A DNA stretch of 13,844 nt from a virus (Duplodnaviria; Heunggongvirae; Uroviricota; Caudoviricetes): the IMG/VR virus record IMGVR_UViG_2711768045_000004; one strand, written 5' to 3'. This document shows positions 64 through 13,061 of this stretch, in pieces. The number at the start of each line of letters is the position of its first letter. The first letter of the stretch is position 1. The notes beneath the pieces are model-generated. The model searched no databases. It was not told the origin of the DNA and saw only the letters and a program-made list of their open reading frames with translations. The translations under genes were made by a program, and so were the position numbers.

Positions 64-392
64 CAGTTCACCACCTGCTTAAACTCCGCGCTGAACTCAA
101 CGCGCAACATCCCGACCCGCGCAGACCACCCGGCACAGGTCACCTTTATCTGCCGGTATGCATAGGGTGGCTTCCACAAAAATGCCTTCCAGCCCCCGTG
201 CTCTGCCAGGAACGCTTCCAGATGCCGGGCCTCCTCCCGGCTCACGGAAAGCATCACCCGGTATGTTTTCAGGTCAGCATTCAGCCCTGCCGCCATACGC
301 TGTGAGTACCCGTCACCAAAACGCACTTCACGCACCGACGGCTGCGAGTTCACCTCCATATCCGGCTTCACTTTCCAGCGAAAGGTTTTCAT
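63..392 (-). CDS. M: Minor tail protein M
   Basis: 109-aa ORF (MKTFRWKVKPDMEV...RVEFSAEFKQVVN), near-identical in length and sequence to lambda gpM (109 aa). ATG at 392..390 overlaps the H stop as ATGA. Confidence 0.95.
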   Translation of the reverse strand: MKTFRWKVKPDMEVNSQPSVREVRFGDGYSQRMAAGLNADLKTYRVMLSVSREEARHLEAFLAEHGGWKAFLWKPPYAYRQIKVTCAGWSARVGMLRVEFSAEFKQVVN

Positions 393-3001
393 CGCCCGCT
401 CCCTGATAACATACCGCCATCACGCAACTGCAGCCGGAGTTCATCCTGCGCCCCCTTACGGGCCATGTCATACACCGCCTTCATCAGCTGCGGCCCCGCC
501 TGTCCGTTGATACCGTCGTTCTGAATCACCACGTGATTGTTCTGATTAAAATTAATACCTTCCGCCCGCCGCATCTGCGCCGGACTTCCGGCACCACCCA
601 CATAACCCCCTTCCGCATAGCCGCGCATCAGACGGTAAAGATTCCCCACGCCTATCCGGCTGGTTGCCTCCTTCGTGAAAACAAACTCCCCGCGGTGAAC
701 TATCCCCGCAGGCTCATATTTGCCGCCCGTCCCCGTAAATCCGCCGGTCGCAAAATGAAAGTTCGCCGCCGCAGCCTCAATGGCCGTTCCCGTGGAAGCG
801 GATGCGCCACCACCGAAAGCACCACCAATGGCGCTGCCGATACGCCCGACAATGCCCACCATGGCCTGTTTAAGCAGGATTTCTGTCATCATGGACAGCA
901 CCGAACGGGTGAATCCCCGCCAGTCTGCCTCTGCACCGGTCAGCATCGCCGCCATATTCTGTGCAATACCGTCAAAGGTCTGCGTGGCAGCACTTTTAAC
1001 CTGCGAAAAACTGTCCGTCGCACTTTCCGCCCACTCTCCCCAGCCGGACTTCAGCCCGGCCAGCCAGTCACCGCGCAGCATGTCTTCATCCGCCCATGTC
1101 TGTTTCAGTGCCCCGGTGACCCGGGCCAGCGCCTGCGGATTATCACCGTACACGTCACGAAGACGCTGCGCTTCAGACTCCCGCTGCGCCTGACGGTCAG
1201 TGAGACCGCGGGCTTTTGCGCTGATGGCGGCCTGCTTCGCGCTCTGTTGCTCTTCAAACCGCACCGCCTGCTGTGCCAGCTCATTCAGCCGTTTCTGGCG
1301 CTCCACCTTGTCGCCCAGCTCAGCCAGCTGGCGTTTGTACTCCAGCGTTTCTTTCTCATGAGCCAGCAGGGATTTCTCCTGCTCAGATAACTGTCGTTTC
1401 GTGGCAACCTCTTTCAGGACCGCATACTGACTTTCCGCCTTCCATAAATCACGGCGCTGCCGGCTGATTTTCTCATTCGCACCGCTGTGTTTTTCCAGCG
1501 TCCTGAGCTCAGCTTCAAGGGCAAGCAGAGCCTCTCTTGCCTGCTCCTCTTCCCTCTCCCCGGCAGAGCGCGTTTTCGGTGATGTATGCTTTTTACCTGT
1601 CAGCTCTTCAGCCAGACGGCTGACGGCTTCCTGCTGCCCCGGACCTTTGCTGACGCCTGTTGCACGCGAACGGTTGATGTACCCCATTTCCCCCTGGCGT
1701 ATACGCGCATCCCGTTCCGCAATGGATTTTCTCAGCGCCAGTTCATCACGTTTTGTTTTCTCAATAAATACGCGGTTCTCTTCTGCCAGTTCACCAAACA
1801 ACGCACCAACGCCGGGCACATTCTTTGTCGTTTCCCAGGCTGACTGAATAAATTCAGCCAGCGCCAGATCCCCCTGCACAAGCAGCAGCTTCACCTGTTC
1901 AACGGTTCCGGCCACCACGTCAGTGATCAGACTGAGTGCCCCCAGTGTATGATCACCTATCCATGCCCATGCGTCAGAAGTCCAGGTTTTAACATCGTCC
2001 CAGATTTTTTCCACCGGCGTGGCCGCTTTATCAAGTTGCTCCAGACGTGCATTCATGACATCCGCAAACAGGGACATCGCCTCCGTCACCGCAGCCTGTT
2101 TACCTTTCGTGCGCTCAAGCTCATCAATATGGCGTAACTGGGAAACGCTCAGGAAGTTATACTGCTGATTCAGGGAGGCCAGCGCCTTCACCGGATCTGC
2201 TGCAATCCCTTCAAAGGCTTTTTCCACCTTCCCGGCATCGTCTCCCACCGTCTGCAGCCATCTCTGAGAGGTTTCCCCCATGATCCGTAGCTGCCCGGCG
2301 GTATATTTCCCGCTTTCTGCCAGACGGGCCAGATTTTCTGCCGCCTGTCTGATACCACCACCGGCTTCATCGCTGATCACCCCGGCCATTTTCCACAATT
2401 CGGCCGTTGTGGTGGCAGCCGCCCCTCCGGTCAGGGTCAGTGAACGCAATAAGGCCCGGTCAGCCTGCTCTGCCTGCCAGGCGGCGGCAGCAAGCGCGGC
2501 CAGTACGGCAACCCCGCCACCTGCCGCCACACGGGCCACCGACATAAATCGCCCCAGTTCACCGGCATTCCGGGCATTTTCAGCCAGTGCATTTGCCGTA
2601 TCTGACAGCGAATCCTCTGATGATTCAGAGGCATCCCTGATCCCGAGAAGTTCCTCCTTCAGCAGGGTAAGCAGGCTGAGCGGTCCACCGAATGAATCGC
2701 TGATCTGCCCCCCCTGCTGCAGCATGATAAGGAAGGGATTCTGACCACCGGCAAGCTGAGTGACAATATCCGTGAACTGTGCGGGCAGTGTGCGCATGGC
2801 AGCCTTATACTGTCCGACTGATATCCCGGCTTTTTGTGCAGCCAGCGCCTGGCGGCTCAGCCCCTGTTCAACAGTACTGGCGGTTTTTCTGGCATCCGCC
2901 TCCAGACTGGAAAAATGGCGGCGTACCCGGGCCATCTGTTCATCAAACCGGGCCGCATCCAGACTCAAATCAATAACCAGATCACCCGCTGGCTGGGACA
3001 T
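389..3001 (-). CDS. H: Tail tape measure protein H
   Basis: 870-aa ORF. The N-terminus (MSQPAGDLVIDLSLDAARFDEQMARVRRHF...) and C-terminal half (...ELRTLEKHSGANEKISRQRRDLWKAESQ...GGFTGTGGKYEPAGIVHRGEFVFTKEATSRIGVGNLYRLMRGYA...) match lambda gpH (853 aa); the middle section is divergent. The start overlaps the end of the T frame. Confidence 0.95.
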   Translation of the reverse strand: MSQPAGDLVIDLSLDAARFDEQMARVRRHFSSLEADARKTASTVEQGLSRQALAAQKAGISVGQYKAAMRTLPAQFTDIVTQLAGGQNPFLIMLQQGGQISDSFGGPLSLLTLLKEELLGIRDASESSEDSLSDTANALAENARNAGELGRFMSVARVAAGGGVAVLAALAAAAWQAEQADRALLRSLTLTGGAAATTTAELWKMAGVISDEAGGGIRQAAENLARLAESGKYTAGQLRIMGETSQRWLQTVGDDAGKVEKAFEGIAADPVKALASLNQQYNFLSVSQLRHIDELERTKGKQAAVTEAMSLFADVMNARLEQLDKAATPVEKIWDDVKTWTSDAWAWIGDHTLGALSLITDVVAGTVEQVKLLLVQGDLALAEFIQSAWETTKNVPGVGALFGELAEENRVFIEKTKRDELALRKSIAERDARIRQGEMGYINRSRATGVSKGPGQQEAVSRLAEELTGKKHTSPKTRSAGEREEEQAREALLALEAELRTLEKHSGANEKISRQRRDLWKAESQYAVLKEVATKRQLSEQEKSLLAHEKETLEYKRQLAELGDKVERQKRLNELAQQAVRFEEQQSAKQAAISAKARGLTDRQAQRESEAQRLRDVYGDNPQALARVTGALKQTWADEDMLRGDWLAGLKSGWGEWAESATDSFSQVKSAATQTFDGIAQNMAAMLTGAEADWRGFTRSVLSMMTEILLKQAMVGIVGRIGSAIGGAFGGGASASTGTAIEAAAANFHFATGGFTGTGGKYEPAGIVHRGEFVFTKEATSRIGVGNLYRLMRGYAEGGYVGGAGSPAQMRRAEGINFNQNNHVVIQNDGINGQAGPQLMKAVYDMARKGAQDELRLQLRDGGMLSGSGR

Positions 3002-3844
3002 ATCTCACACCTCCGGAAATCCCCGCTGAAGCCATCATTAATGCAACATCATCTTCGCTGACATCCACCACATCCGCAGAAGGTGAAATATCGCCCCCTC
3101 CGTCCCCTCCGAACCGGACGCCTCCGGCAACTCCTGTCGCTTTCTGCATCAGCATGTCTTCCTCGTCCGGCATCTCCGTCTGCTCTTCCTCACACGCTGG
3201 AGCAAGCAGACTGAAATCCGCCGGATGCATATCCGGATCGCCAAAAAACAGGCTGAGTACGGCGTACATCAGCCCGGAAAAATGAGCGTCCAGTTGGGTA
3301 TCCTGAAAATAATGCGTGCAGTAAAAACGTCGCCAGTCGGCATATTCGGTGGATGTCATCCCGGCAAGCATGGCGCGCCAGTCGGCTCTCCCCATCTCAC
3401 GCGCCAGTTTCAGGACAAAGTTCAGCTCGCCTTCGAATGCTTTTTTGATGTTACCGGCTCAGTCGCTTCTGCTTTCCCGGTTTGTTCAGGATCGGCATCG
3501 TGCCGGTTATCCAGCATACCTGAAAGATAAAGCACCCGGTTCGTTGCCTGATTCAGTGCATCAGCAGGCCATCCCAGCATCACTTCACGGCGGATCTGCT
3601 GCATCTCTGTCTCCGGAGAGGCCAGAGTGCCTTTGAGGGAATGGGAATGCCATAGCGACATCGCCACAAGCAGGGATGCCGTTTCCAGATATCGCTGGTT
3701 AATGTGCACGGCATCATGCTTCGTTGTCTCCTGTTGTTCTGCGTCTGAAACAAACTTTATATAATCAAACCGCTGCAGCGCGGACAGTTCCGACAGCGTG
3801 ACGGACACACCGTTATATTCAAATTGTTCTGTTTTCAGGAACAT
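2982..3844 (-). CDS. T: Tail assembly chaperone G-T fusion made by programmed -1 ribosomal frameshift at 3446..3440
   Basis: The -1 frame downstream of the slippery heptamer is open to the TGA at 2982..2984 and reads KKAFEGELNFVLKLAREMGRADWRAMLAGMTSTEYADW..., homologous to the lambda T part of gpG-T (..FDGELSFALKLAREMGRPDWRAMLAGMSSTEYADW.., from memory). The T frame has no credible independent start/RBS at the position-equivalent site. Confidence 0.8.
3422..3844 (-). CDS. G: Tail assembly chaperone G (zero-frame product)
   Basis: The track ORF 3422..3958 contains MFLKTEQFEYNGVSVTLSELSALQR..., matching the lambda gpG N-terminus. The in-frame ATG at 3844..3842 gives 140 aa (lambda G = 140 aa) and is preceded by GGGGAGGAG (RBS). 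The longer track start (GTG at 3958) would overlap V and is rejected. Confidence 0.9.
   Translation of the reverse strand: MFLKTEQFEYNGVSVTLSELSALQRFDYIKFVSDAEQQETTKHDAVHINQRYLETASLLVAMSLWHSHSLKGTLASPETEMQQIRREVMLGWPADALNQATNRVLYLSGMLDNRHDADPEQTGKAEATEPVTSKKHSKAS
3440..3446 (-). other. Programmed -1 frameshift slippery heptamer A AAA AAG
   Basis: Minus-strand sequence ...ACA TCA AAA AAG CAT TCG... in the G zero frame: the heptamer A_AAA_AAG is in the correct X_XXY_YYZ phase, 6 codons before the G stop, at the same relative position as lambda's G_GGA_AAG. Confidence 0.75.
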
Positions 3845-3860: not shown

Positions 3861-4610
3861 TCAGCCCGCAGCGCCATCCGTGACGGTGATCTCCGCCACC
3901 GCCGCAAACTCACCATTGCCGGTGACAACAGGGATCTGTGCTTTACCTGCCGCAACACCTTTCACCGTGATCGTGTTCCCTTTCACGGTAATGGTGGCGA
4001 AATTCTGATTTGCCGACGTTGCGCGGAATGTTTTATCCGTTGCGCCTTCCGGCTGAACGGCCACAGTCAGGGTGGTGCTCTGACCTTTTGCCACATTCCC
4101 CGTTAGTGGCGTCACGGTAATACCGGTGACCGGTGTGATTTCTCCCCGATCCTCCGCCAGCGAAGGACGACCGATATTGGTGATTTTTACCGTACGGGTA
4201 ATCACTTCTTTGGCGGTCACCGCTTTACCAATGGCGCTCACCCAGCCACGGAACACATCCACCGTACCGTTCGGGAAGCGGATTTTGTAGGCCCGGGTCT
4301 CACTGCTGTCAAACCAGGCAATCAAATCACGCTGCCCTTTCTCGCCGGGCTTCCAGGCCAGCGTAAAACTGGTGTCACCGGCAGATTTCTGCCCCTGCCC
4401 GGTGGATACCCAGTCGGCATCCTCATCATCCAGATAGTTATCGTCGTAGGATTCCGCCGTCATCTCGCCGGGGGTCAGATCCTTTATTTTTGCCAGACGC
4501 GTCCACTCATCATCTGACAGCGGGTTTGCATAAGCATCGCCCTTACCGGTGTAAACCCAGAGCGTGGTGCCGGAACCTTTTACCGGCGCCAGGGGATTTG
4601 GTTTTGCCAT
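3861..4610 (-). CDS. V: Major tail protein V
   Basis: 249-aa ORF ([33 protein letters not shown]...), matching lambda gpV (246 aa), including the C-terminal Ig-like region (...[14 protein letters not shown]..). RBS GAGGA upstream. Confidence 0.95.
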
Positions 4611-11128: not shown

Positions 11129-13061
11129 TCACTCCTCCGGACAGCTTCGCTGCCAGTTCTTTCAGGGTTGGCCGGGTCGTCTCTTCTTCCCGGGATTTTG
11201 CCAGTACAGCCAGATCAAGCTGCCAGCGTTGCACGGACACACGTAATGCCGCGTAGGCATACACCAGGCAGTCCAGCGCTTCGTTACGCCGCTTTTTGTT
11301 ATCCCACAGCAGACGCATCTTTCCTTTTTCCCACTTCTCCACCAGCTCTTCCGCCACCAGTTGCTGCGCCTCTGTCTGCGAAAAAATCTCCGGATCATCA
11401 GGAAAACGGATGGCATACGACGTGGCTGCATCCGCAGGTGTGGGATCGGCTTTCATACGGGCATAGAGAATTTCTTTTGCGGTGTCCGTCCCCACTTCAC
11501 ACAGATACACGCCCCGCTGATTGCGGGTTTTTGGCATGGTGATCACCGGCTTGCCATAGACAGATGCGCCTTTTACCGGCAGCACCCGGAAAACACCGTG
11601 TTTTTTTGATCTCTGATAAACGATTTCGCCATCGATCCCCCCGGTGTCCCAGCAGACCCGGGAAATGGTCATTTCGGTTCCGTCTGCATGGCGGTATTTT
11701 TTGTTGATCGCCGCATCCACACGTAACAGCGTCTCTTCCTCATCGGGACGCCCCATAATGATGATTTTATCCACCAGAAAGGCTTCCTCTCCCGGAGCCC
11801 ATCCCCAGACATACATCTCAAAACGGTTTCGCTGCGAGTCAATGCCCGCCGTCAGATAAACCACCCGGGCAGGCACCGCCGCCGTGTAACGCACAACCTT
11901 ATCCATCAGTACCTGGTGATCGAGTTTTTCGCCCACGGCCTCTTCCCAGGTCTCGCCCAGCGTGGTGTTCACAAAAGTTTTCACGCCGTTGGGATCTTTC
12001 AGTGCATCCAGCCAGTCATAGACTATCTGTACCCAGGTAGTGAACGGACTGTACGCCGTCCAGATATGGAACGTGATGGAGCGCGGCGGCGGAATTTCAT
12101 TACCCGCAGCGCTGAAAAACGTCAGACCATCACGGGTCCACATCCCCGTGTTTTCACAGATCCACCGCCCGTTGCTCTGGTCAAGCTCAGACTGATGGAT
12201 CACGCAGCCATGATGTTCACAGAGGTAGAAAACGCTTTCGGGGCTGTCCTTCTCCCATTTAAGGCCAAAAGGCGTGGACTCATCGCCAAATTTCAGATAC
12301 TGCTCCTCCCCACAGTGTGGGCAGGGCACATAAAAACGCATGAAATGCGCCGACTCATTGGCCGCTTTTTCGATCTGGCAGGAGCCTTTTATTTTAGGCG
12401 TCGAGCCGCGAATGGATTTTGGCCATACAGAGCCCTCAATACGCTTATCCCCCAGCAGGGTTGGCGAGCCCTCTTTTTCAACATCCGGCTCGAACGAGGA
12501 AAGCTCGTCATAACAGACCACGTCCACGGATTTTTCACGGTAGTTTTTGGCGGCAGCGCCGCCCAGGCACCAGAACCCAACACGTGACGTAAACCTTTTT
12601 AATGTCAGCGTGTTATCCCTGTGCTTACGTCCCAGCCAGGGGGAAAGAATTTTCAGACAAGGGACATCCCGTAACGTTGACTCCACGTGAGATTTCATAA
12701 AATCTTCAGCAGATGAATCTGTCGGTTGGAACAATAAAGTGTTACGGCTTTTATGCTCGATAAAATACCCGACCACGCCCAGTAACATCTTTGTATAACC
12801 AACACGGGCAGATTTAATCAGATTAACCGTGCGGATCCGGTCATTCCCCATGCAGTTCATTATTGCCATCTGAAATGGCAGAGTTTCCCAGCGACCAGCA
12901 AGATACGAAGACTCTGGTGGTAGATAATAATGTCTGTCAGCCCACTCAACTGGCGTCACAGGCAATGGCCGAATCATCCCCTTTAACCCGGCCCGGAATG
13001 GAAAAACAAACTTATGAATTTGACTCTCTAATGTAGTCTGCAAGCATATCTGGTAACCCAT
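11112..13061 (-). CDS. A: Terminase large subunit A (ATPase/endonuclease)
   Basis: The track ORF 11112..13076 (654 aa) matches lambda gpA (641 aa) from ..[31 protein letters not shown] onward through the ATPase and nuclease regions. Start is uncertain: the ATG at 13061 is chosen here; alternatives are the GTG at 13076 or the TTG at 13043. Overlaps the 3' end of nu1, as in lambda. Confidence 0.93.

What the first reader, a model, noticed from the sequence alone, without database searches (positions are those of the whole stretch)
3422..3480. G-T frameshift site uses A AAA AAG instead of lambda's G GGA AAG, with an out-of-phase GGGAAAG 30 nt upstream
The programmed -1 frameshift that makes the G-T chaperone is conserved in position, but the slippery heptamer here is A_AAA_AAG (minus strand, plus coordinates 3446..3440), the classic high-efficiency heptamer. 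A lambda-like GGGAAAG also sits at 3478..3472, but in the wrong phase (zero-frame GGG AAA G), and the -1 frame from it hits TGA after 6 codons, so it cannot be the functional site. Frameshift efficiency sets the G:G-T ratio (about 3-4% in lambda) and so affects tail assembly.
Basis: partly seen in the sequence, partly recalled or inferred. Interest (0 to 1): 0.5.

Follow-up and report, generated by a model that had tools for sequence, protein, structure and literature searches.

The report
Lambda-type G-T frameshift site, A_AAA_AAG allele
This is the well-known programmed -1 ribosomal frameshift that makes the tail-assembly chaperone fusion G-T of lambda-like phages, here in a common E. coli prophage allele whose slippery heptamer is A_AAA_AAG instead of lambda's G_GGA_AAG; published reporter data rate the two heptamers as equally efficient, so it is an ordinary variant.

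Summary
On the minus strand, gene G (3844..3422, 140 aa) contains AAAAAAG at 3446..3440 in the phase A_AAA_AAG. This is the position homologous to lambda's G_GGA_AAG, 18 nt before the G stop. The -1 frame runs on from there for 152 codons of T homologue, to the stop at 2984..2982. The upstream GGGAAAG (3478..3472) is codon-aligned, and its -1 frame closes at TGA 3461..3459. It is not conserved in relatives.

The hint that the heptamer changes the G:G-T ratio is not supported. Published E. coli reporter data give A_AAA_AAG and G_GGA_AAG nearly the same efficiency (0.29 vs 0.28 %, 4.3 vs 3.8 %, 39 vs 43 % in three contexts).

The allele is widespread. It occurs in 644 of 5426 complete E. coli genomes, mostly STEC, and in phage VT1-Sakai. 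Related phages use a third heptamer, G_GAA_AAG, at the same site; only A_AAG and its position are constant.

All records I inspected for this allele annotate G and T as separate genes, which is an annotation gap rather than new biology. A conserved downstream RNA structure starting 8 nt after the heptamer is a candidate stimulator, with suggestive evidence only. Interest is low.

The parts
3422..3844 (-). Gene G (tail assembly chaperone, 140 aa), zero-frame product; ATG 3844..3842, stop TGA 3424..3422
   Evidence: Pfam PF06894 Phage_TAC_2, E 2.7e-34, residues 1-123. Lies between the V homologue (4610..3861) and H (3001..389).
3440..3446 (-). Slippery heptamer A_AAA_AAG (zero-frame codons AAA 3445..3443 and AAG 3442..3440, Lys-Lys), 18 nt before the G stop
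   Evidence: Homologous to lambda GGGAAAG (L001 1110-1116) in gapless protein and DNA alignments. Invariant in all fetched relatives of this allele.
2982..3440 (-). T segment, read in the -1 frame from G3440 (re-read) to the stop TGA 2984..2982: 152 codons. The G-T fusion is join(3844..3440, 3440..2982), 287 aa
   Evidence: Pfam PF06223 Phage_tail_T, E 2.5e-11. phrog_32165 matches the whole fusion, residues 1-285, E 6.4e-165. T-frame codon periodicity starts at the heptamer.
3393..3395 (-). Internal ATG (Met in LAREMGR) that PGAP and GenBank records use as the start of a separate T gene; probably not a real start
   Evidence: T annotated from this ATG. This Met is Phe in phi80, mEp237, HK225, Fels-1 and mEp460. 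The only SD-like triplet, GAG, abuts the ATG. Conserved T-frame residues E5, F8, L12, A13, R14, E15 lie upstream of it.
3472..3478 (-). Out-of-phase GGGAAAG (zero-frame GGG AAA G, Gly-Lys); non-functional look-alike
   Evidence: offset 366, phase 0. Reads GGGAAAA in 4 of 13 relatives. Aligns with lambda residues E-D, not with lambda's heptamer.
3459..3461 (-). TGA in the -1 (T) frame that closes that frame upstream of the heptamer. The window open in both frames runs 3458..3422 (37 nt)
   Evidence: Absent in ASU11-type relatives (ACA GAG instead of ACT GAG).
3363..3431 (-). Candidate downstream stimulatory RNA structure. Basal helix 3431..3425 (GGCGAGC) pairs with 3369..3363 (GCUUGCC), 8 nt after the heptamer. 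It encloses a hairpin, 3406..3392 paired with 3385..3371
   Evidence: MFE -31.3 kcal/mol, z -2.59. The same architecture is predicted in lambda (z -4.11), mEp237 (-5.77) and phi80 (-3.86), but not in Fels-1 or mEp460. 91 % of cells paired, 5 pairs with double changes, 0/500 shuffles reaching the observed score. Pair 28-96 is AU 40 / GC 27 / CG 2 among 71 unique sequences. Suggestive, not proven.

Best explanation
The site is the programmed -1 ribosomal frameshift of a lambda-type tail-assembly chaperone gene pair, in an E. coli lambdoid prophage of the VT1-Sakai / Stx1-phage kind.

Most ribosomes translate G (140 aa) and stop at 3424..3422. A minority slip while the two Lys codons AAA-AAG (3445..3440) occupy the P and A sites. 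Both tRNA-Lys (anticodon mnm5s2UUU) re-pair one base back, on A-AA and A-AA. G3440 is read again as the first base of GCA, and translation continues in the T frame to 2984..2982. The product is a 287-aa G-T fusion with the junction ..VTSKK|AFEGEL...

By analogy with lambda, G and the G part of G-T coat the tape-measure protein H, and the T part recruits the major tail protein V. A low G-T:G ratio is required, about 1:30 in lambda.

A_AAA_AAG is an allelic replacement of lambda's G_GGA_AAG (GCG GGA -> UCA AAA). I expect it to give about the same few-percent efficiency.

A base helix beginning 8 nt downstream, which encloses a GC-rich hairpin, may be the modest stimulator that lifts the bare-heptamer rate (about 0.3 % in reporters) to the few-percent range.

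Shown: the sequence anatomy, the homology, the conservation and the coding signature. Inferred: that slippage occurs, its rate, and the role of the structure.
For: - Anatomy and phase.
- Gapless alignment of the fusion with lambda G-T across the junction: 57 % identity, E 6e-112.
- PF06894 on the G part and PF06223 on the T part. A PHROG of about 290-aa proteins (profile length 290) covers the whole fusion.
- Gene order is V-G-T-H within a complete lambda-type late operon.
- Third-position-biased variation in the T frame from the heptamer onward. This holds in the 27 nt between the G stop and the annotated T ATG (0.29/0.31/0.68), as it does after the ATG (0.47/0.29/0.97).
- No start codon in the T frame before 3395, and that Met is not conserved.
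- At the homologous position every relative has a shift-prone ..A_AAG. Lambda-type loci have G_GGA_AAG (109 + 69 loci). This allele has A_AAA_AAG (13 + 11). The five annotated phages phi80, mEp237 and HK225 (N15-like), Fels-1 and mEp460 have G_GAA_AAG, as do 78 of 80 further N15/phi80-like viral-contig loci. phi80's record annotates that heptamer and a joined G-T CDS.
- A_AAA_AAG, G_GGA_AAG and C_CCA_AAG are the three most efficient motifs in E. coli, with near-equal values.
- An unrelated HK97-like prophage tail chaperone cluster (ECs1801) with A_AAA_AAG is listed as a 'true' frameshift case. Members of that kind of cluster were measured at 6-7 %.
- Lambda keeps the 0 frame about 96 % of the time, and a 30:1 ratio is required.
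- Downstream structure.
Against: - No protein or ribosome-profiling data exist here for this allele, so slippage and its rate are inferred.
- All records of this allele that I inspected annotate G and T as separate CDSs. That is what automatic gene callers produce, not evidence of independent translation.
- The evidence for the structure is weak. The region encodes a highly conserved peptide (LAREMGRPDWRAML). Covariation rests on a few lineage-level changes. Fels-1 and mEp460 lack the fold. The z-score for this window is only -2.6.
- No SD-like stimulator was evident upstream. Sharma et al. also scored 'no SD' for the lambda-type gpG cluster (G_GGA_AAG_4), not for this allele.
Confidence: 0.9

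Rival explanations
1. T is a separate gene translated on its own from the ATG at 3395..3393, by initiation or by re-initiation after the G stop 27 nt upstream, as PGAP and GenBank annotate it. On this view the heptamer is incidental.
For: RefSeq and GenBank records list 'phage tail assembly protein T' from this ATG. The ATG is close to the G stop, so coupling is conceivable.
Against: The 45 nt of T frame upstream of the ATG carry invariant residues (E5, F8, L12, A13, R14, E15) and codon-position-3-biased variation, although the frame has no start codon. The Met is replaced by Phe in the phi80, N15-like, Fels-1 and mEp460 types. The only SD-like triplet abuts the ATG. In lambda, T is made only as G-T (Levin et al. 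1993, as cited).
Confidence: 0.04
2. The frame change is made at the RNA level. RNA polymerase slips on the A6 run and deletes or adds an A, producing a fraction of mRNAs with G and T in one frame.
For: The site is a homopolymer run. Transcriptional realignment on A runs is used in some bacterial and phage genes.
Against: Known programmed transcriptional realignment uses runs of more than 7 A or more than 8 T, and this run has 6. Lambda-type and N15-type alleles at the same position have only A3 or A4 runs (GGGAAAG, GGAAAAG), so a mechanism common to the family cannot depend on polymerase slippage. What is conserved is the tRNA-Lys A_AAG tetramer.
Confidence: 0.03
3. The upstream lambda-like GGGAAAG (3478..3472) is the real or an additional shift site.
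For: It has the same seven bases as lambda's heptamer and lies 32 nt upstream. In ASU11-type relatives the -1 frame is open across it.
Against: Its phase is GGG AAA G, so neither tRNA can re-pair after a -1 move (CGG, GAA). In this window the -1 frame closes after 6 codons. It reads GGGAAAA in 4 of 13 relatives. It aligns with non-homologous lambda residues.
Confidence: 0.01

Closest known systems
Bacteriophage lambda G / G-T programmed -1 frameshift (Levin, Hendrix and Casjens 1993; Xu, Hendrix and Duda 2004, 2013, 2014)
   Same: Homologous G (PF06894) and T (PF06223). Same gene order V-G-T-H. The shift site is at the identical alignment position, 18 nt before the G stop. Same A-site codon AAG read by tRNA-Lys. 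The T N-terminus is nearly identical, including a 25-nt stretch identical at DNA level.
   Different: The P-site codon and the preceding base differ (UCA AAA instead of GCG GGA). Both slipping tRNAs are therefore tRNA-Lys, rather than tRNA-Gly plus tRNA-Lys. The junction is Ser-Lys-Lys, not Ala-Gly-Lys. The predicted basal helix downstream is one pair shorter (7 vs 8 bp) and the whole predicted fold is weaker (z -2.6 vs -4.1).
phi80, N15-like (mEp237, HK225), Fels-1 and mEp460 G-T sites with G_GAA_AAG
   Same: Same protein families, same position and same A_AAG. phi80's record annotates the slippery sequence and a joined G-T CDS.
   Different: The P-site codon is GAA (Glu), a non-canonical heptamer. 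In vitro work calls it less slippery. The N15-like and phi80 types have a longer basal helix and a shorter spacer. In Fels-1 and mEp460 the G stop comes one codon after the heptamer.
E. coli dnaX and IS3-family (IS911, IS2, IS150) A_AAA_AAG frameshift signals
   Same: Identical heptamer and phase. Tandem slippage of two tRNA-Lys(mnm5s2UUU).
   Different: dnaX has a strong upstream SD-like element and a tight hairpin 6 nt downstream (that spacing is from my own knowledge, not from a call), and shifts about 50 %. Here I saw no SD-like element and found only a candidate interrupted structure, and a few percent is expected. In dnaX the shifted product is shorter; here it is longer.
HK97-like prophage tail assembly chaperone cluster A_AAA_AAG_25 (ECs1801, Sakai prophage Sp9; Sharma et al. 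2014; Antonov et al. 2013)
   Same: A tail-chaperone frameshift in E. coli prophages that uses A_AAA_AAG. It is listed as 'safely inferred', and the HK97-like cluster was measured at 6-7 %.
   Different: It is a different protein family: ECs1801 shows no significant similarity to this G (E 0.67). Its heptamer sits immediately before the stop codon.

Membership tests
Lambda-type G / G-T tail assembly chaperone with programmed -1 frameshift | Upstream ORF is a gpG homologue | tested here: met
   PF06894, E 2.7e-34, 118 bits against a cutoff of 27. The fusion as a whole is 57 % identical to lambda G-T.
Lambda-type G / G-T tail assembly chaperone with programmed -1 frameshift | Downstream ORF in the -1 frame is a gpT homologue without a conserved start of its own | tested here: met
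   PF06223, E 2.5e-11. No ATG/GTG/TTG in the T frame from 3458 to 3396. The Met at 3395 is not conserved. A coding signature is present upstream of it.
Lambda-type G / G-T tail assembly chaperone with programmed -1 frameshift | Located between the major tail protein gene and the tape-measure gene | tested here: met
   ORF map and PGAP annotation of a 96.6 %-identical prophage: V-like tail protein, gpG, T, tape measure.
Lambda-type G / G-T tail assembly chaperone with programmed -1 frameshift | In-phase slippery sequence inside the short overlap of the two frames | tested here: met
   A_AAA_AAG at 3446..3440 is the only canonical heptamer in the 37-nt overlap.
Lambda-type G / G-T tail assembly chaperone with programmed -1 frameshift | Fusion protein made at a few percent of G and needed for tail assembly | not testable with these tools
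   Needs protein detection or genetics. Lambda values (about 4 %, 30:1) come from the literature.
dnaX / IS3-type stimulated A_AAA_AAG frameshift signal | Heptamer A_AAA_AAG in the X_XXY_YYZ phase | tested here: met
dnaX / IS3-type stimulated A_AAA_AAG frameshift signal | SD-like element about 6-17 nt upstream of the motif | tested here: not met
   The upstream 20 nt, GCGACUGAGCCGGUAACAUC, contain only 3-nt matches (GAG, GGU). Sharma et al. scored 'SD: N' for the lambda-type gpG cluster (G_GGA_AAG_4), not for this allele.
dnaX / IS3-type stimulated A_AAA_AAG frameshift signal | Stable stem-loop or pseudoknot 5-9 nt downstream | tested here: inconclusive
   A 7-bp basal helix starts 8 nt downstream and encloses a GC-rich hairpin; z -2.59. 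It is conserved in lambda, phi80 and N15 types with limited covariation, and absent in Fels-1 and mEp460. No Rfam family matches.
Programmed transcriptional realignment (polymerase slippage) | Homopolymer run of about 8-9 or more A or T | tested here: not met
   The run is A6.

The most novel reading that the evidence does not exclude
The lambda / N15 / phi80 G-T family shares a previously uncharacterised downstream RNA element of about 70 nt. It consists of a basal helix 5-8 nt after the heptamer that encloses a GC-rich hairpin. On this reading it is the real frameshift stimulator and is co-tuned with heptamer strength: strongest with the weak G_GAA_AAG, intermediate with G_GGA_AAG, and weakest with A_AAA_AAG. 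Mean MFE is -38.4, -35.2 and -31.5 kcal/mol respectively. All alleles would thus converge on the same few-percent G-T yield. In addition, both slipping tRNAs in this allele are tRNA-Lys(mnm5s2UUU). STEC prophages carrying it would then be more sensitive than lambda to the host tRNA-thiolation (Tus/IscS) state.
Probability: 0.2. Interest if true: 0.45.

Novelty: new member of a known kind. Interest (0 to 1): 0.2.

Why it matters
The practical value is mainly in annotation. Every record of this allele that I inspected lists T as a separate gene starting at an internal ATG, and no G-T fusion is annotated. That covers VT1-Sakai, ASU11, 1720a-02, an Stx2 phage record and the RefSeq E. coli genomes. 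The 90-bp allele occurs in 644 of 5426 complete E. coli genomes.

Biologically, three natural heptamers at one homologous site (G_GGA_AAG, G_GAA_AAG, A_AAA_AAG) offer a ready-made series for asking how frameshift efficiency is held at the level tail assembly needs. It also allows a test of whether the conserved downstream fold contributes. Nothing here challenges what is known about G-T frameshifting.

Tried and rejected
- A genome-contig scan with the fusion protein returned only one locus (E. albertii, GGGAAAG type), because the peptide patterns were too specific.
- The search for homologous proteins with the 287-aa fusion returned 19 odd partial or chimeric proteins and no full-length fusion. 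That collection holds gene-caller products, so this says nothing about frameshifting.
- Xu et al. 2004 (Mol Cell) and Xu et al. 2013 (PMC3762263) are not held. I could not check whether this allele appears in their tables.
- Sharma et al.'s cluster A_AAA_AAG_25 looked at first like this allele. ECs1801 proved to be an unrelated HK97-like chaperone.
- Rfam gave nothing: no family at gathering threshold in the window, and only a chance snoRNA hit at E 0.8 near the site.
- The promoter and terminator scan found nothing of note between G and T.
- The GC-rich hairpin (3406..3371) on its own was rejected as a canonical stimulator, because it starts 33 nt after the heptamer. Only the enclosing basal helix has a suitable spacing.
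- An upstream SD-like stimulator was looked for by eye and not found.
- A tblastn of the junction peptide against plasmids only confirmed that the match splits into two frames.

Full report
**What the window is**

The minus strand carries a complete lambda-type late operon: Nu1, A, W, B, C, D, E, FI, FII, Z, U, V, G, T, H, M and the start of L. This follows from the ORF map and from the PGAP annotation of a 96.6 %-identical E. coli prophage. The 1-kb G-T region is 98.6 % identical to Stx1a-converting phages. It is 99.1 % identical to a prophage of E. coli strain 48.

**Checking the observation**

- Gene G runs 3844..3422 (-) and encodes 140 aa ending ..EPVTSKKHSKAS*.
- AAAAAAG occupies 3446..3440 at offset 398 of G (398 mod 3 = 2). 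The zero-frame reading is UCA AAA AAG, which is the canonical phase A_AAA_AAG.
- Reading from G3440 in the -1 frame gives AFEGELNFVLKLAREMGRADWRAML..., 152 codons without a stop down to TGA 2984..2982.
- GGGAAAG at 3478..3472 has offset 366 (mod 3 = 0), so it reads GGG AAA G. Its -1 frame reads RESRSD and then TGA at 3461..3459.
- Every coordinate and statement in the finding is therefore correct.
- The count of AAAAAAG in the window is not above chance (3 against 2.04 expected). The placement is what matters. Among 4345 codons of the 15 genes there are 10 in-phase X_XXY_YYZ heptamers. Only this one belongs to the efficient class, and only this one opens a long -1 ORF (152 aa; the others are 34 aa or less).

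**Homology with lambda**

The conceptual fusion (135 + 152 = 287 aa) aligns with lambda G-T (279 aa) over its whole length. There is no gap at the junction (..VTSKK|AFEGEL.. against ..VSAGK|VFDGEL..), identity is 57 % and E is 6e-112. At DNA level, lambda's GCG GGA AAG UGU UCG ACG GUG AGC UGA lines up base for base with UCA AAA AAG CAU UCG AAG GCG AGC UGA. In both, the heptamer ends 18 nt before the end of the G stop codon. Pfam places the G part in PF06894 (E 2.7e-34) and the T part in PF06223 (E 2.5e-11). A PHROG with a profile length of 290 matches the entire fusion.

**Is T translated by frameshifting or on its own?**

All inspected records of this allele annotate T as a separate CDS from the ATG at 3395 or its equivalent. 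Four points argue against that annotation.

- The T frame has no ATG, GTG or TTG between its upstream stop (3461..3459) and that ATG.
- The Met is replaced by Phe in the phi80, N15-like, Fels-1 and mEp460 relatives.
- Six invariant T-frame residues lie upstream of it.
- Column variability follows the T-frame codon pattern from the heptamer onward. Entropy at codon positions 1/2/3 is 0.61/0.33/0.98 in the overlap with the G tail. It is 0.29/0.31/0.68 between the G stop and the ATG, and 0.47/0.29/0.97 after it.

**How common the allele is, and what relatives use**

- I anchored on a 23-mer of the T N-terminus in viral contigs. That gave 123 loci: 109 with GGGAAAG, 13 with AAAAAAG and one with AGGAAAG at the site.
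- I then anchored on the T protein. The 11 loci whose T is at least 97 % identical to this one all have AAAAAAG, and the next 69 have GGGAAAG.
- The 90 bp around the heptamer occur at 95 % identity or more in 644 of 5426 complete E. coli genomes, at 1445 places. These are largely O157:H7, O111, O145 and O121.
- VT1-Sakai, ASU11 and 1720a-02 carry the allele.
- More distant members of the same protein families use G_GAA_AAG at the same alignment position. These are phi80, mEp237, HK225, Fels-1 and mEp460, plus 78 of 80 further N15/phi80-like loci. phi80's record annotates that heptamer and a joined G-T CDS.
- The invariant features are thus the position and A_AAG. The P-site codon varies: GGA (Gly), GAA (Glu) or AAA (Lys), each a single-base step from the next.
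- The upstream GGGAAAG is GGGAAAA in 4 of 13 relatives. It aligns with unrelated lambda residues. It is a chance Gly-Lys look-alike.

**Efficiency**

Sharma et al. 2014 measured all 64 heptamers in E. coli. A_AAA_AAG, G_GGA_AAG and C_CCA_AAG are the three best. The values with no stimulator, with the IS911 stimulators and with the IS3 pseudoknot are:

| Heptamer | No stimulator | IS911 stimulators | IS3 pseudoknot |
|---|---|---|---|
| AAAAAAG | 0.291 % | 4.255 % | 39.0 % |
| GGGAAAG | 0.277 % | 3.801 % | 43.0 % |

An in vitro study likewise describes G GGA AAG as working 'almost as well as' A AAA AAG. An unrelated HK97-like tail chaperone cluster of E. coli prophages (ECs1801) uses A_AAA_AAG and is listed as a safe case. 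The HK97-like cluster was measured at 6-7 %. Lambda stays in frame about 96 % of the time and needs roughly 30 G per G-T. The heptamer swap is therefore expected to be close to neutral. The suggestion that it alters the ratio has no support.

- Bare heptamers give about 0.3 % in reporters, whereas lambda gives about 4 %. Some context effect is therefore likely (this is inference).
- The 75 nt after the spacer fold into a basal helix that encloses a GC-rich hairpin. In window coordinates, 3431..3425 pairs with 3369..3363, and 3406..3392 pairs with 3385..3371. The basal helix starts 8 nt after the heptamer.
- Folding energies against shuffles give z -2.59 here, -4.11 in lambda, -5.77 in mEp237 and -3.86 in phi80. 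They give only -1.10 in Fels-1 and -0.33 in mEp460.
- On a 10-sequence alignment, 91 % of cells pair and 5 pairs show changes on both sides. No shuffle out of 500 reaches the observed covariation score.
- Among 71 unique sequences (three of them stray motif matches, not G-T sites), pair 28-96 is A-U in 40, G-C in 27 and C-G in 2.
- The caveats are serious. The region encodes a highly conserved peptide. The double changes trace to a few lineage splits. The structure was derived from these same sequences. Two lineages lack it.
- Sharma et al. also flagged a potential downstream structure, and no SD, for the lambda-type gpG cluster.
- I rate it as a candidate stimulator only.
- I saw no SD-like element upstream, and no Rfam family matches.

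**Mechanism**

With AAA in the P site and AAG in the A site, both tRNA-Lys(mnm5s2UUU) can re-pair perfectly one base upstream. G3440 is then re-read and translation enters T. Transcriptional slippage is unlikely. The run is only A6, while known cases need more than 7 A. The sister alleles at the same site have only A3 or A4 runs.

One inferred consequence follows. Both slipping tRNAs are thiolated tRNA-Lys, and hypomodification of that tRNA raises lambda G-T frameshifting. This allele may therefore respond more strongly to the host thiolation state.

**Verdict**

The identification as the G-T frameshift site is correct. The functional contrast with lambda is not supported. This is a common natural allele of a textbook recoding signal, systematically unannotated in databases. 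Novelty: a new member of a known kind. I found no paper that names this allele in the PF06894 family, but I could not read Xu et al. 2004. Interest is low, at 0.2.

Noticed in passing
Viral-contig loci (for example L240 and L278): There are rare natural variants of the heptamer at the homologous site: one lambda-type locus with A_GGA_AAG, one N15/phi80-type locus with A_GAA_AAG (L240) and one with G_GGA_AAA (L278). They may be decaying prophages or tolerated weaker sites.
   Followed up: no
window 3389-3413 (-) compared with L001 1142-1166: A 25-nt stretch, CCTGAAACTGGCGCGTGAGATGGGG, is identical between this prophage and lambda, although the G-T proteins are only 57 % identical overall. It overlaps the 5' arm of the GC-rich hairpin. 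This fits RNA-level constraint, strong peptide constraint, or a recombination junction.
   Followed up: partly
L002 (VT1-Sakai), L126 (ASU11), L128 (1720a-02), L295 (Stx2_14040) compared with window 2982-3100: These relatives share the A_AAA_AAG allele, but similarity to the window ends near query position 802-805. Their annotated T is 102 aa from the internal ATG, against 137 aa here. There is thus a mosaic breakpoint inside T, ahead of the second GGVRY repeat.
   Followed up: no
window 2982-3140 (-); alignment A2 columns 103-152: Lambda-type and window-type T proteins end with a duplicated motif (GGVRFG ... about 35 aa ... GGVRY). The phi80, N15-like, Fels-1 and mEp460 T proteins stop soon after the first copy.
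   Followed up: no
L132 (Fels-1) 595-607; L133 (mEp460) 583-595: In these relatives the G stop codon comes one codon after the heptamer (GAA AAG CCC UGA and GAA AAG UCC UGA), and the downstream fold is absent. They may use a different context to promote shifting.
   Followed up: no
L126 (ASU11) 661-700, and 5 viral loci: The -1-frame TGA that closes the T frame upstream of the heptamer in this window (3461..3459) is ACA GAG in these relatives. Their T frame is therefore open across the out-of-phase GGGAAAG. The phase still forbids re-pairing.
   Followed up: partly
window 11601-11607 (-), in the terminase large subunit gene: There is an in-phase A_AAA_AAA heptamer with a 34-codon -1 extension. 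H also has an in-phase G_GGG_GGG at 2708-2714 with a 27-codon extension. Both are probably incidental.
   Followed up: no
L003 (E. coli strain 48) 1-400: In the closest match to the G-T region (99.1 %), the tail module is preceded by a Mom-family methylcarbamoylation gene and a truncated tail gene, not by the head genes. That prophage is rearranged relative to this window.
   Followed up: no
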